Origin: an uncultured Candidatus Rokubacteria bacterium
GTDB lineage: Bacteria; Methylomirabilota; Methylomirabilia; Rokubacteriales; CSP1-6
Direction: 5' to 3'
DNA length: 64,000 nucleotides
Assembly (NCBI GenBank): GCA_963747235.1
Contig: CAVVEU010000031.1
Location: 64,001-128,000, forward strand
The notes under the pieces: model-generated
Told to the model about the DNA's origin: nothing
Seen by the model: the letters and a program-made list of their open reading frames with translations, nothing else
Databases searched by the model: none
Shown here: positions 32,719 through 35,946 of the stretch, piece by piece
Numbering within the stretch: the stretch's first letter is position 1
Layout of the letters: each line of letters starts with the position of its first letter
Translations under genes and position numbers: made by a program

Positions 32719-34263
32719 GTGTTTTCCGTCCTCGACGTCCTGCTGCGCGGCCTGATCCTCGCCGCGCAGGCTACCGCGGTGGGCGGGGTGTGCTTTCTGC
32801 TGCTCGTGGCCCGCGCGCCCGAGGCGCCGCGCTCGCTGCTGCTCATCGCCGCCGCGGCGGTCACGCTCGCGCTGGGCCAGGCGCTGTCGCTCGGCAACGA
32901 GCTGTTCGTGCTCCTCCACGAGGCGGCCTGGCCGCTGCGCGCGGCGCTCGACACGCTCTACGTGCAGGTGAGCGTCGTCCGGATCGCGGCCGGGCTCGCG
33001 CTGGCCGGGTGCGCCCTCGGACTGCGCCGCGCCCGCGGGCCGTCGCGGCTCTGGCCGGCGGTGGTGGCGCTGGCCGCGGTGCTGGTCGTGGCCGCGCCGT
33101 GGACGAGCCATGCCGCCGCGCGGCTCGACTCCCGCGTGCTGCTGCTGCTGCTCGACGGCGCCCATCAGCTTGGCGCCGCGGTGTGGGTCGGCGGCCTCGT
33201 GCACCTGACCGCGGCCGCGTTCCGGCGCGGCGATCGGCCCTGGCCGGTGGCCCTGCTCCGGCGGTTCTCGAACCTGGCCCTGGGCGCCGTCGCGGTCCTG
33301 GTGGGCGCGGGCGTCGGCCTCACGTGGAACTACGCGCCGGACCAGACCGCGATCTTCGGCACCGCGTACGGCCTCATGGTCATGACCAAGGTGGCGATCC
33401 TCGGCGGCCTGCTCGTGCTGGGGGCGCTGAACTCCCGGGCGATCCGGCGCATGGACGGCGCGCCCGAGGCCGACCAGCTCACGCTTCGCCGCTTCGTGGA
33501 GGTCGAGGTCGGCCTGGGCCTCACCGTGCTCTTCGCGGCCGCCTCGCTCACCTCGCTGCCGCCGGCGGTGGATCTCACCCACGATCGCGCCACGCTCTCG
33601 GAGGTCGCGACGCGCTTCACCCCGCGGATGCCGTCGCTGCGCTCGCCCTCGATCTCCGAGATGCCGATCGACGATCCGCTGGCGCCCCGCAACGACGCCG
33701 ATCGCGCCTGGTCCGAGTTCAACCACCACGTGTCCGGGATCCTGGTCCTCACCATGGGCCTGCTGGCCCTGCTGCACGCCACGGGCCGGGCCCGCTGGGC
33801 GCGGCACTGGCCGCTCGTCTTCCTGGGCCTGGCCGCCTTCATGGTCGTGCGCAACGATCCGGGCTCGTGGCCGCTCGGCCCGGAGGGCTTCTGGGAGGGC
33901 TGGCTCGTCGCGACGGTGGCGCAGCACCGGGTCTTCGTGCTGCTCGTGATCGTCTTCGGCATCTTCGAGTGGATGGTCCGCAGCGGCCGGCTGGCGTCGC
34001 GGCGCGCAGCCCTGATCTTCCCGCTGCTCTGCGTGATCGGCGGCGGCATGCTGCTGAGCCACTCGCATGCCGCGCAGAACCTCAAGGACGAGTTCCTCCT
34101 CGAGGTGACCCACGCGCCGCTCGGCCTGCTGGCCTTGCTGATCGGCTGGGGGCGCTGGCTCGAGCTTCGGCTCCCCGAGGGGCGGGGGCGCGTGCCGGGG
34201 GCGCTCTGGGCCGTCGGCCTCGTGCTCGTGGGCGCTCTCCTCATCATCTACCGGGAGAGCTAG
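32719..34263 (+). CDS. copD: CopD family copper transport membrane protein with C-terminal multi-TM extension
   Basis: SHA, H...AAVWVGGL, RRFS, T.YG...K; extension with SEFNHH, QH, HSH, TH. Confidence 0.8.
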   Translation: MFSVLDVLLRGLILAAQATAVGGVCFLLLVARAPEAPRSLLLIAAAAVTLALGQALSLGNELFVLLHEAAWPLRAALDTLYVQVSVVRIAAGLALAGCALGLRRARGPSRLWPAVVALAAVLVVAAPWTSHAAARLDSRVLLLLLDGAHQLGAAVWVGGLVHLTAAAFRRGDRPWPVALLRRFSNLALGAVAVLVGAGVGLTWNYAPDQTAIFGTAYGLMVMTKVAILGGLLVLGALNSRAIRRMDGAPEADQLTLRRFVEVEVGLGLTVLFAAASLTSLPPAVDLTHDRATLSEVATRFTPRMPSLRSPSISEMPIDDPLAPRNDADRAWSEFNHHVSGILVLTMGLLALLHATGRARWARHWPLVFLGLAAFMVVRNDPGSWPLGPEGFWEGWLVATVAQHRVFVLLVIVFGIFEWMVRSGRLASRRAALIFPLLCVIGGGMLLSHSHAAQNLKDEFLLEVTHAPLGLLALLIGWGRWLELRLPEGRGRVPGALWAVGLVLVGALLIIYRES

Positions 34264-34278
34264 CGCGCGAGGCGCTGA

Positions 34279-34457
34279 CGCCGCGGGTGGGCGGCGGCGC
34301 GGGGGGCGGGGCCCTCCCGGGAACACGCTGAGTCGCTAGCCGCGTCACGCCGTCGCAATCGAGCCACGAGACAGGGCCCGTCGCAGCCTTCGACAACCCG
34401 CAGAAGACACGGTTCCCGGGAGGGCCCCGCCCCCCGCACCACCGCCCACCCGCGGCG
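34279..34457 (-). repeat. Hairpin element E1: 46-bp terminal inverted repeats enclosing an 87-nt core
   Basis: Arms 34279-34324 and 34412-34457 pair with 2 mismatches; the core is nearly identical to the E2 core in reverse orientation. Confidence 0.85.
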
Positions 34458-34594
34458 CCGTGCCGGTGGTTACCTCCGCCATCTGATTCGTCCTTCATCA
34501 AGATCCAAGACCTGCTCCGCCGCTCGGCGCGCTTTGTCGGAATGTAAGACCTGACCCTGCCGATGCTTCGCGGGTTCGACTGGACGCGCGGGGA

Positions 34595-34762
34595 GGGTGG
34601 GGGTGGTGGTGCGTGGTGCGGGGGCCTCCCCAGACCCGTGTCTTCTGCGGGTGGTCGAAGGCGCGCGGGCTCTGTCTCGTGGCTCGATCGCGACGGCGTA
34701 GCGCGCATGCGACTCAGCGTGGTCTGGGGAGGCCCCCGCGCCGCGCGCCGCCGCCCCCGCCC
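34595..34762 (+). repeat. Hairpin element E2: 42-bp terminal inverted repeats enclosing an 84-nt core
   Basis: Arms 34595-34636 and 34721-34762 pair with 6 mismatches, all T-G. Confidence 0.85.
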
Positions 34763-34765
34763 GCT

Positions 34766-35946
34766 TCAGGCGGATTCGAGGAGCAAGCCGGTGAGGTAGC
34801 GGGATTCGGGGATGGTGAGGATGATGGGGTGGTCGCGGCTCTGGGTCAGGGTGGCGAGGACGCGGGTGCGGATGTTCGCGTCGCCGGCGGCCTGACGGCA
34901 GATCTCCTCGAACATCGCGGGCGTCACGTGGTGGGAGCAGGAGAACGTGGCCAGCCGGCCGCCGCGCTCGAGCAAGCGGAGGCCGCGGATGTTGATCTCC
35001 TTGTAGCCGCGCGCGGCGGCCTCGACCGCGTCCTTGCGGCGCGTGAAGGGCGGGGGATCGAGCACGACCAGCCCGAAGCGCTCGCCCTTCGAGTCCAGGT
35101 CCCGCAGGCCGTCGAAGGCGTTGCCGCTCCGCAGCTCGGCGCGGGCCTCCACGCCCGTTGAGCGCCAGATTGCGGCCGGCCAGGGCCAGGGCGTCCGCTG
35201 AGGAGTCCAGCAGCAGCGCGCGCTCGGCGCCGCCCAGCAGCGCGTGGCAGGCGAAGCCGCCGCCGTAGCAGAAGGCATCGAGCACCCGGCGCCCCTGGGC
35301 CATGCCGCGCGGTCAGGAGCCGATTGTCGCGCTGGTCGAGGTAGAGGCCGGTCTTCTGGCCGGCGCCCAGGGTCACCGCGAAGCGGCCCTGGCCTTCCTC
35401 GATGATCAGATCGCCGCTGGCCAGGTCGGCCTCGGGCGGGGTCTCGCGGACCGCGTCGAAGCCCTCGATGCGCGCCGCCGTCGGGTCGTCGAGCCGCACG
35501 ATCCGGCCGTCGGGGAAGATCGCGGTGAGCGCCTCGCGGATCCACTCCGCGTTGCGCGCCATGCCGAGCGTGAGGCACTGGATCACGCTCACGGGCCCGT
35601 AGCGGTCCACCACCAGCCCGGGCAGGCCGTCGGCCTCGCTCCAGCAGAGGCGATAGGCGGGCGTGACGAGCGACGCCGCGCGCCGGTACTCGAGCGCCGC
35701 CTCCAGGCGTCGCCGGATCAGCGCCGCGTTGACGGCCTCGTCGGTCCGCGTGAGCAGGCGGCAGACCAGCGAGGAGCGCGGGCTGTAGAAGCCGCGCCCG
35801 AGGTAGCGGCCGGTGGCGTCGGTGACCTCGACGGCGGCGCCGGCGGACCACGAGCCTTTGAGATCGGCCACTTCGCCCCGGTAAATCCACGGGTGCCCTG
35901 CCCGGATCCGGCGCTCGGCCCCTCGTTTCAGGATCAGAGTGGCCAG
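34766..35946 (-). CDS. rlmI: RlmI/YwbD-like PUA-domain SAM-dependent RNA methyltransferase, frameshifts near 35300 and 35160
   Basis: GHPWIY, SEADGLPGLVVDRY, GQKTGLYLDQRDNR, VLDAFCY.GGF, LDPPPF, TFSCS, PESRYL. Confidence 0.85.

What the first reader, a model, noticed from the sequence alone, without database searches (positions are those of the whole stretch)
34279..34762. Pair of divergent ~170-180 nt elements with shared core, covarying long stems and strand-specific G-U pairs: candidate novel structured RNA or ssDNA element
Seen: E1 (34279-34457, minus) and E2 (34595-34762, plus) share a near-identical ~85-nt core (CGTGTCTTCTGCGGGT.GTCGAAGGC..CGGGC.CTGTCTCGTGGCTCGAT.GCGACGGCGT..GCGACTCAGCGT). 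Their closing stems (46 and 42 bp) differ in sequence between copies yet each pairs fully. All 8 stem mismatches (2 in E1, 6 in E2) are U-G wobbles on the strand where the cores align. The core can form internal hairpins GUCUUC/GAAGGC and CGGGCY/GGCUCG, the latter with a U-G to C-G change between copies. The two elements point away from a 137-bp spacer between convergent genes. Inference: selection on a single-stranded fold (multibranch head on a long rod), so an ncRNA, ribozyme-like RNA or non-autonomous mobile hairpin element. I do not recognise it as a known family.
Basis: partly seen in the sequence, partly recalled or inferred. Interest (0 to 1): 0.78.

Follow-up and report, generated by a model that had tools for sequence, protein, structure and literature searches.

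The report
Old hairpin mini-transposon copies, conserved tip
The two elements are old copies of a small non-coding hairpin repeat that spreads as a miniature transposon in uncultured Rokubacteria-type soil bacteria; the kind is known, but the stem has stayed paired and the tip conserved long after insertion, and that is unexplained.

Summary
E1 (34279-34457, minus) and E2 (34595-34762, plus) are about 170-nt hairpins with 46- and 42-bp stems, a shared core of about 85 nt, and 2 + 6 stem mismatches that are all U-G on one strand. They are not a unique pair. The genome has 8 copies, all 20 same-genus genomes searched have 3-16, and one related genome has about 100 near-identical copies.

In that burst genome the repeat extends beyond the hairpin into terminal inverted repeats flanked by CTAG. 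The same terminal repeats end a complete IS630-family insertion sequence in a related genus. The family therefore spreads as an IS630-type MITE that lands on CTAG, often a TAG stop codon.

The window's copies lack these terminal repeats and look like old, immobile relics. Across 8 orthologous E1 copies the arms change about as fast as synonymous sites yet always pair, and the core is clearly more conserved. Some constraint, or arm-to-arm and copy-to-copy conversion, still acts. The G-U bias persists across the family (46 G-U against 11 A-C). The proposed core hairpins have no covariation support, and no Rfam family matches.

Verdict: a new member of a known kind, with an unexplained conserved core.

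The parts
34277..34459 (-). E1: hairpin repeat copy. It has a 46-50 bp GC-rich stem and an apical core of about 85 nt with the invariant blocks. It lies next to the stop of the CopD-domain gene.
   Evidence: I3; 140.5 bits. Orthologous copies occur in 7 other same-genus genomes.
34593..34764 (+). E2: second copy in the opposite orientation. It has a 42-bp stem with six U-G pairs and ends 2-4 nt before the stop codon of the minus-strand gene.
   Evidence: I5; 128.6 bits. At this locus a full copy is found only in G000, G014, G012 and G020, with remnants in G005 and G001.
34458..34594 (.). 137-bp spacer between the two 5' ends. It is not part of the repeat and is homologous only to the orthologous locus of relatives.
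   Evidence: spacers of 9 head-to-head pairs share no sequence except between orthologous loci and a short REP motif.
34533..34557 (+). One unit of a different, shorter repeat family (about 27 nt, REP-like) that lies inside the spacer.
   Evidence: 54 exact 12-mer hits in the genome; inverted units flank a Y1 transposase gene in two same-genus genomes.
34260..34263 (+). It is a candidate ancestral insertion target.
   Evidence: CTAG is kept at this stop in 16 of the 17 orthologous loci read (G013 has TTAG; the G003 locus is cut at its contig end before the stop). Kept also where E1 is missing.
32719..34263 (+). Flanking gene with a CopD (copper resistance protein D) domain. It gives context only.
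   Evidence: PF05425, 74 bits; GC3 frame analysis.
34766..35871 (-). Flanking PUA/SAM-methyltransferase-like gene. Its coding signal moves between reading frames. It gives context only.

Best explanation
E1 and E2 are two old copies of a non-coding, long-hairpin repeat family confined to one lineage of uncultured Rokubacteria/Methylomirabilota-type bacteria.

Shown: the family multiplies as a miniature inverted-repeat transposable element (MITE). In one related genome about 100 near-identical copies of about 215 nt carry the same hairpin and core. There the hairpin sits between roughly 15-25-nt terminal inverted repeats, each abutting CTAG. A complete IS630-family insertion sequence in another genus of the same family ends in the same terminal repeats, also between CTAGs.

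Inferred: an IS630-type transposase supplied in trans cuts and pastes the element into TA within CTAG. In a 70% G+C genome, tolerable CTAG sites are mostly TAG stop codons, which would explain why copies hug gene ends.

Shown: the window's copies, like nearly all copies in its genus, lack these terminal repeats, and many sit at orthologous loci across the genus.

Inferred: they are immobile relics inherited vertically.

Shown: in these relics the arms diverge about as fast as synonymous sites but stay complementary. The apical core is markedly more conserved, and mismatches are preferentially G-U on the core strand.

Inferred, with least certainty: the retained hairpin works as a very stable stem-loop at the 3' ends of the neighbouring transcripts, as an end-protecting or insulating structure between convergent genes. 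The conserved core would be a recognition module, for a protein or as RNA, read on the core strand.
For: Family and copy number:
- 8 copies in the genome at 128-145 bits; opposite-strand scores are 47-54 bits.
- 20 of 20 same-genus genomes have 3-16 copies.
- Only 4 of 16 other genera of the family and 2 of 21 genomes of a sister family have any copy.
- One genome has 118 model matches.
- A pattern scan of one genome per species found 46 loci, mostly in MAGs titled Rokubacteria or Methylomirabilota.

Burst copies and the autonomous partner:
- Burst copies are near-identical. They extend into terminal repeats, with CTAG at both ends in most of the 19 copies read.
- The 18-mer terminal motif occurs 255 times in that genome, against 0 for the reversed control.
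- The junction TAG closes a long high-GC3 ORF at the 5' end in 2-3 copies and at the 3' end in 3-4 copies, out of 19.
- L192 holds a 1.16-kb IS with a 376-aa transposase (NF033545, IS630 family, 264 bits against a cut-off of 100). It has the same terminal repeat and CTAG on both sides.
- IS630 has a 2-bp duplication and a CTAG target (Table 1 of PMC2577343, passages seen).

Relic status of the window's copies:
- The full-length profile matches copies in G000 only over the hairpin and core.
- The terminal 15-mer is absent from 19 of 21 genus genomes, including G000.
- At the orthologous locus E1 and E2 are variously present, truncated, recombined, or reduced to arm remnants.

Constraint:
- 36 of 40 stem pairs show changes on both sides, 97.9% of cells are paired, and 0 of 500 shuffles reach this.
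- Across 8 orthologous E1 copies, invariant columns are 14/41 and 17/40 in the arms and 56/89 in the core. copD third positions give 64/167. All 8 copies fold at -118 to -136 kcal/mol.
- With symmetric criteria there are 46 G-U against 11 A-C stem mismatches in 38 copies.
- The core strand is the more stable in 35 of 46 full elements.
Against: - No terminal repeats could be recognised on E1, E2 or other copies of the genus. Their descent from a TIR-bearing MITE is inferred from the shared hairpin and core. The hairpin module could instead have been captured by a MITE in the other lineage.
- No IS630-type transposase (DDE_3) was found in the burst genome (81% complete), in G000, G009 or G023.
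- No clean empty site was obtained. The loci without E1 carry arm-like remnants or are too diverged.
- Whether the duplication is TA or CTAG cannot be separated from a palindromic terminus.
- The proposed RNA-level role is untested. The scan found no terminator-like T-run and no promoter-like site.
- Arm-to-arm or copy-to-copy gene conversion could keep the stem paired without selection.
- The burst consensus folds equally well on both strands.
Confidence: 0.6

Rival explanations
1. The element is chiefly a structured non-coding RNA, a stand-alone small RNA or cis-acting RNA and possibly catalytic, read from the core strand. The hairpin rod and conserved multibranch head are the functional product, and MITE-type spread is incidental.
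For: - Four invariant sequence blocks are separated by variable segments that can form hairpins.
- One-sided changes in the core are wobble-compatible only on the core strand: UA to UG 12 times, GC to GU 18 times.
- There are 46 G-U against 11 A-C stem mismatches.
- The core is more conserved in situ than neutral sites, 56/89 against 64/167 invariant.
- One metatranscriptome contig covers the spacer end plus all of E2 and stops at its 3' end (record 16). This contig is unstranded.
Against: - No core helix has a change on both sides, and RNAalifold on a realigned core finds almost nothing.
- No promoter-like site was found in the spacer, and no conserved 5' flank.
- No Rfam family matches, only spurious miRNA-hairpin hits far below threshold.
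- The burst-genome consensus shows no strand preference.
- RNA contigs are unstranded and may derive from DNA carry-over.
Confidence: 0.2
2. The family is a REPIN-type element moved as single-stranded DNA by a REP-associated tyrosine transposase (RAYT). This would explain a strand-specific fold with G-T pairs.
For: - The genus has a true REP/RAYT system: a Y1 transposase gene flanked by inverted 27-nt REP units in G008 and G009.
- REP units are abundant in G000.
- REPIN spacers also show compensatory changes (PMC3116915, passages seen).
- The burst-type 3' end and the REP unit share two short words (TGTCGG and CTGAC), seen by eye.
Against: - REP units lie near only 9 of 49 copies, always on the 5' side and never as a flanking pair.
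- No Y1 transposase was found in G000 or in the burst genome.
- The terminal repeats of the burst subfamily match an IS630-family IS, not a REP.
- Opposite orientations within 300 nt at convergent genes rule out a simple link to replication direction.
Confidence: 0.07
3. The hairpins are ordinary host 3'-end stem-loops (factor-independent terminators or mRNA stabilisers) that only look like a repeat family because of G+C-rich low complexity.
For: - They sit within 60 nt of a stop codon on at least one side in 42 of 49 copies.
- Metatranscriptome contigs run from the copD 3' end into E1 and from E2 into the neighbouring gene.
Against: - The asymmetric 85-nt core has invariant blocks shared across genera, which is homology, not composition.
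- Copy number ranges from 0 to about 100 among related genomes.
- One subfamily has terminal repeats and CTAG flanks.
- No T-run follows the stem in the window.
Confidence: 0.05

Closest known systems
IS630-family insertion sequences and MITEs derived from them (CTAG target, TA duplication; Tenzen and Ohtsubo 1991, as listed in Table 1 of PMC2577343)
   Same: The burst subfamily (G026, G045) is non-coding, about 215 nt and high-copy. It ends in inverted repeats identical over about 11-15 nt to those of a complete IS630-family IS in L192, and it is flanked by CTAG on both sides.
   Different: The window's copies have no such terminal repeats. Across the family the interior (hairpin and core) is more conserved than the termini, the reverse of the usual MITE pattern. 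Relic copies keep their pairing and core in situ. No IS630-type transposase was found in the burst genome or in G000.
REPINs / REP elements with RAYT transposases (Bertels and Rainey 2011, PMC3116915)
   Same: Both are extragenic, hairpin-forming repeats with compensatory changes between the two sides, and both are proposed to fold as ssDNA or mRNA. A real REP/RAYT system coexists in this genus.
   Different: REPINs have conserved ends and a variable middle. Here the middle is conserved and the ends vary or are lost. No flanking REP pair and no RAYT is linked to this family.
ERIC/IRU and Correia-type long palindromic intergenic repeats of enterobacteria and Neisseria
   Same: They are non-coding repeats of 100-170 nt that fold into long hairpins, sit in transcribed intergenic regions near gene ends, occur in either orientation, and differ in copy number between relatives.
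   Different: There is no sequence relation. This family has a much longer, G+C-rich stem, an asymmetric conserved apical core, and an identified candidate transposase family for one subfamily.

Membership tests
MITE of the IS630 family | Terminal inverted repeats matching those of an autonomous IS630-family element | tested here: not met
   Not met for E1, E2 and the other copies in G000. The full-length profile matches only the hairpin and core, and the terminal 15-mer has 0 hits in G000 and in 18 other genus genomes out of 21. It is met for the sister subfamily in G026 and G045, against the IS in L192.
MITE of the IS630 family | Insertion at TA within CTAG, seen as CTAG on both flanks | tested here: inconclusive
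   For E1, CTAG holding the copD stop lies 15 nt from the hairpin on one side, and there is no CTAG on the other side. E2 abuts a TGA stop, although some orthologs have CTAG there. The burst subfamily has CTAG at both ends in most of the 19 copies read. No clean empty site was obtained.
MITE of the IS630 family | Short, non-coding, multi-copy, with presence/absence differences between relatives | tested here: met
   Copies are 160-180 nt and lie between genes. There are 8 copies in G000, 3-16 in the genus, and 0 to about 118 matches elsewhere. The locus states differ among 17 orthologous loci.
MITE of the IS630 family | A cognate transposase available in the same genome | tested here: not met
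   DDE_3 (PF13358) was not found in G000, G009, G023 or G026. It is present in 30 of 81 genomes of the family, a count that includes the unpublished G029 and G067. These assemblies are incomplete, so absence is not shown.
REPIN / REP-RAYT | Two inverted REP units as conserved ends, and a RAYT gene flanked by the same REPs | tested here: not met
   REP units lie near 9 of 49 copies, on the 5' side only. The Y1 transposase genes in G008 and G009 are flanked by the 27-nt REP, not by this hairpin. G000 and G026 have none.
Any Rfam RNA family | Match at the family's gathering score | tested here: not met
   The best hit is MIR1437 at 42.5 bits against a gathering score of 168. It is a generic G+C hairpin match on both strands.
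Intrinsic (factor-independent) terminator | G+C-rich stem followed by a T-run | tested here: not met
   No terminator-like sites were found in 33900-35100. The flanks of copies in G000 have no T-run. The burst subfamily has only TTT or TTTT after the stem on the core strand.
Integron attC site | Tandem array of cassettes, each with one site, next to an integron integrase | not tested
   This was considered because attC sites fold strand-specifically and follow ORFs. Copies here are dispersed over contigs, next to ordinary genes, and often in head-to-head pairs. No integrase search was run.

The most novel reading that the evidence does not exclude
The conserved apical core is a functional nucleic-acid module in its own right. 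It would be a structured RNA, or a single-stranded DNA site, read on the core strand and recognised by a host or element protein, or even catalytic. It rides on a MITE, and the host has kept it at gene 3' ends long after the transposon ends decayed. This would be a bacterial counterpart of ribozyme- or RNA-motif-bearing mobile repeats.
Probability: 0.2. Interest if true: 0.75.

Novelty: new member of a known kind. Interest (0 to 1): 0.4.

Why it matters
For annotation, it explains a recurrent, very stable hairpin at gene ends in an uncultured soil phylum. The hairpin breaks assemblies and even produces fold-back chimeric contigs. The work also links it to an identifiable transposase family.

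For biology, the interesting part is what happens after insertion. The transposon ends are gone, yet the stem has been re-paired many times and the core is held nearly fixed. That makes these relics a natural test of whether bacteria domesticate MITE hairpins as 3'-end RNA structures, or whether palindromes maintain themselves by conversion. It also offers a candidate conserved motif to probe.

Tried and rejected
- Rfam scan of the region at a permissive E-value gave only generic miRNA-hairpin matches far below threshold.
- blastn of E1 against the plasmid and phage collections gave no match.
- Literature search for 'Rokubacteria, repeat, hairpin' returned 3 unrelated papers (listing only). 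I therefore found no description of this family in the library searched.
- Spacers of 9 head-to-head pairs share nothing beyond orthology and a REP motif, so the pair is not a composite element.
- 5' and 3' flanks of 49 copies show no shared motif by eye.
- Genes between nearby copies in the burst genome are ordinary (nucleotidyl transferase, carbamoyltransferase, LigB), not transposases.
- A 0.94-kb interval between terminal-repeat hits (L173) has no transposase-sized ORF.
- The single DDE_3 gene of G045 (L170) does not carry the terminal repeat.
- An empty-site search at a burst-genome insertion found relatives only 73-78% identical, so no junction could be read.
- Core structure: RNAalifold on the 8-copy, the 50-copy and a realigned core alignment gave three different, weakly supported folds. 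I report no core fold.
- Orientation rule: the 3' end lies within 60 nt of a stop in 36 of 49 copies and the 5' end in 12 of 49. Between tandem genes I count 11 antisense against 7 sense, with several loci orthologous. I do not claim an orientation rule relative to transcription.
- RNA evidence: only assembled contigs of metatranscriptome runs could be laid. They bridge gene ends and elements but carry no strand, start or end, and DNA carry-over is possible. Parts without cover mean nothing.
- Promoter and terminator scan found nothing.
- Complex prediction, structure prediction and the large protein searches were not used, because nothing here is protein-coding.

Full report
**1. The observation**

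- The repeat finder gives two inverted repeats: 34279-34324 with 34412-34457 (46 nt, 96%) and 34595-34636 with 34721-34762 (42 nt, 86%). The loops of the two are reverse complements of each other (I1-I5).
- Listing the pairs shows 2 non-Watson-Crick pairs in E1 and 6 in E2. All are U-G on the strand where the cores align, and C-A on the other strand.
- Folded as RNA, the two elements reach -157 and -143.8 kcal/mol. Shuffles average -101 and -94, and 0 of 200 shuffles are as stable.
- A CopD-domain gene ends at 34263. A minus-strand gene ends at 34766. The two elements therefore lie head to head between convergent genes, each a few bases from a stop codon.

**2. It is a repeat family, not a unique pair**

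- The window's genome (5.57 Mb, 42 contigs, 70.7% G+C, 88% complete) has 8 copies, including a second head-to-head pair on another contig.
- I built a covariance model from the 8 copies. It scores them at 128-145 bits and their opposite strands at 47-54 bits.
- An exact-pattern scan of one genome per prokaryotic species found 46 loci, mostly in MAGs titled Candidatus Rokubacteria or Methylomirabilota. The model confirms 44 true-strand copies of at least 80 bits in them.
- Among 61 related genomes, all 20 of the same genus have 3-16 copies. Only 4 of 16 other genera of the family have any, and 2 of 21 genomes of a sister family.
- One genome, G026, has 118 model matches. Another, G023, has 22.
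- Many copies lie at contig ends. One short contig of a relative is a fold-back chimera around the hairpin.
- No Rfam family, plasmid or phage record, or paper in the library searched matches.

**3. The stem covaries; the core does not**

On 50 copies aligned to the model, the long helix has 40 pairs. Of these, 36 show changes on both sides and 97.9% of cells are paired. Control values are 76.7% in shuffles and 44-55% with slid partners, and 0 of 500 shuffles reach any measure.

The core consists of four invariant blocks separated by variable segments. As read from those calls, the blocks begin CCGUGUCUUCUGCG, then CGAAG, then UCUCGUGG, and finally end in UCAGCGUG.

The variable segments can usually form small hairpins. 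However, three alignments gave three different consensus folds, and no core helix has a change on both sides.

I therefore report no core fold.

**4. Strand asymmetry**

- I extended the stems with criteria that treat G-U and A-C alike. The 38 copies that could be anchored, of the 49 in hand, then hold 46 G-U and 11 A-C pairs on the core strand.
- The core strand folds more stably than its complement in 35 of 46 full elements (Wilcoxon p about 5e-6) and in 34 of 50 cores (p about 0.003).
- One-sided changes in the core are also wobble-compatible only on that strand.

The core strand is richer in T than in A, so a strand-biased C-to-T process is an alternative to selection. The consensus of the burst genome folds equally on both strands, which means the wobbles accumulate in old copies.

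**5. How the family spreads**

The copies of G026 are nearly identical along their whole length, distal stem included.

Their similarity continues about 32 nt beyond the hairpin on each side, into imperfect terminal inverted repeats. Both ends abut CTAG in most of the 19 copies read.
- The 18-mer terminal motif occurs 255 times in that genome, against 0 for the reversed control.
- A 65-nt derivative keeps the two ends without the hairpin.
- The single copy in G045, from a sister family, has the same ends and CTAG flanks.
- In 19 G026 copies, the junction TAG closes a long high-GC3 reading frame at the 5' end in 2-3 cases and at the 3' end in 3-4 cases. Insertion therefore sits exactly on stop codons, in either orientation.

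I then looked for a matching autonomous element.
- I searched the family for IS630-type transposases (PF13358). They occur in 30 of 81 genomes, a count that includes the unpublished G029 and G067.
- I scanned the returned loci for the terminal repeat.
- L192 holds a complete 1.16-kb insertion sequence. Its 376-aa transposase matches NF033545 (IS630 family transposase, 264 bits, cut-off 100). It has CTAG on both sides and terminal repeats that align with the ends of the G026 and G045 copies.
- IS630 is listed with a 2-bp duplication and a CTAG target (PMC2577343, Table 1, passages seen).

I reached the CTAG reading. Earlier notes of this scan on other genomes, read afterwards, say the same of similar Rokubacteria repeats. 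They are not independent evidence.

**6. The window's copies are relics**

- The full-length G026 profile matches the copies in G000 only over the hairpin and core.
- The terminal 15-mer is absent from 19 of 21 genomes of the genus, G000 included.
- The flanks of 49 copies share no motif.
- Many copies lie at orthologous loci in different MAGs.

I read the copD locus in 17 genomes of the genus. The states are:
- E1 and E2 both present in G000 and G014.
- E1 alone in G013, G011, G008, G004 and G009.
- An E1/E2 recombinant in G015.
- E1 (masked by N) plus the 3' half of E2 in G005.
- E2 alone in G012, and E2 alone with an extra half copy in G020.
- Arm remnants only in G001.
- No element in G019, G002 and G007. 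G019 carries a possible arm remnant.
- The G010 locus is the fold-back chimera mentioned in section 2, and the G003 locus is cut off at its contig end.

This is the pattern of an old insertion that is being eroded by deletions within the palindrome and by recombination between copies. It is not the pattern of current transposition.

CTAG is kept at the copD stop in every genome read except G013, which has TTAG. That fits an ancestral CTAG target, but no clean empty site was found.

**7. What is retained**

I compared the 8 orthologous E1 copies.
- Invariant columns are 14 of 41 in the 5' arm and 17 of 40 in the 3' arm. This is about the same as copD third codon positions (64 of 167).
- The core has 56 of 89 invariant columns. 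copD first and second positions have 279 of 334.
- All 8 copies still fold at -118 to -136 kcal/mol.

The arms have therefore been rewritten at roughly the neutral rate while staying complementary, and the core is under additional constraint. Either selection or conversion, arm to arm or copy to copy, must act.

E1 and E2 of G000 share a core variant that their orthologs in G014 lack. This hints at conversion between the neighbouring copies.

**8. Position and orientation**

With a simple GC3-based gene caller, a stop codon lies within 60 nt of the 3' end in 36 of 49 copies and of the 5' end in 12 of 49. All 9 pairs seen are head to head.

Between tandem genes I count 11 antisense against 7 sense, and several of those loci are orthologous. 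I therefore do not claim a rule relative to transcription. The asymmetry is unexplained; an unmodelled 5' extension or differential survival could cause it.

**9. Expression**

Only assembled contigs of four metatranscriptome runs could be laid.
- Two contigs from different studies run from the copD 3' end into E1.
- One contig runs from the core of E2 into the neighbouring gene.
- One contig covers the spacer end and all of E2.

These contigs have no strand, and DNA carry-over cannot be excluded. They are compatible with read-through of the neighbouring genes into the hairpins, and nothing more.

**10. Verdict**

Best explanation (0.6): E1 and E2 are old, immobile copies of a hairpin-bearing MITE family. 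Its active form is moved by an IS630-family transposase into CTAG sites. The hairpin and core persist under constraint, most plausibly as a stable stem-loop at transcript 3' ends, with a recognition module in the tip.

Rivals:
- A structured RNA as the primary function (0.2).
- A REPIN moved by a RAYT (0.07).
- Plain host terminators (0.05).

This is a new member of a known kind. The unexplained conserved core and the in-situ compensatory evolution are the parts worth following up.

Noticed in passing
window 34533-34557 (+); genome-wide in G000; L171 967-979 and 1942-1954; L172 1368-1380 and 2344-2356: A second, shorter repeat family (about 27 nt, ending in AAGACCTGACCCC). It has 54 exact 12-mer hits in G000, or 173 hits allowing up to 2 mismatches in the 13-mer. 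Units often form inverted doublets next to stop codons. In G008 and G009 two inverted units flank a Y1 (HUH) transposase gene, the hallmark of a REP/RAYT system. No Y1 gene was found in G000.
   Followed up: partly
window 34766-35871 (-): In the PUA/SAM-methyltransferase-like gene next to E2, the coding signal (GC3) and the Pfam hits move between three reading frames. This points to a frameshifted pseudogene or to assembly errors.
   Followed up: partly
L115 (G010:C641): This short contig runs from the copD 3' end through the hairpin and back into the reverse complement of the same copD 3' end. It is a fold-back assembly chimera caused by the hairpin, and the orientation of the element there is unreliable.
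   Followed up: no
L192 1369-2534 (-): A complete IS630-family insertion sequence is inserted exactly at the TAG stop of a host ORF. Its own transposase stop codon is the TAG of the CTAG at its far end.
   Followed up: partly
L174 181-246 (G026:C148): A 65-nt mini-element consists of the two terminal repeats of the burst subfamily with the whole hairpin missing. It is either a deletion derivative or the bare vehicle.
   Followed up: no
L108 (G005), downstream of copD: The orthologous E1 position reads as a run of N (withheld or masked bases) between recognisable outer arm ends, so that copy could not be examined.
   Followed up: no
L207/L209 (G020:C64:6854-7070): One same-genus genome has a 216-nt interval bounded by the burst-type terminal repeats. 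A TIR-bearing copy may therefore exist inside the genus through recent transfer or contamination of the bin.
   Followed up: no
G000:C33:75879-76039, C3:62427-62581, C24:747397-747554, C40:473290-473444: Four weak model matches (34-38 bits) elsewhere in the genome. They may be unrelated G+C-rich hairpins or very decayed copies.
   Followed up: no
window E1/E2 against L106 (G014) E1/E2: E1 and E2 of G000 share the core variant GCGAC where both copies in G014 have GAGAC. This suggests gene conversion between the neighbouring inverted copies.
   Followed up: no
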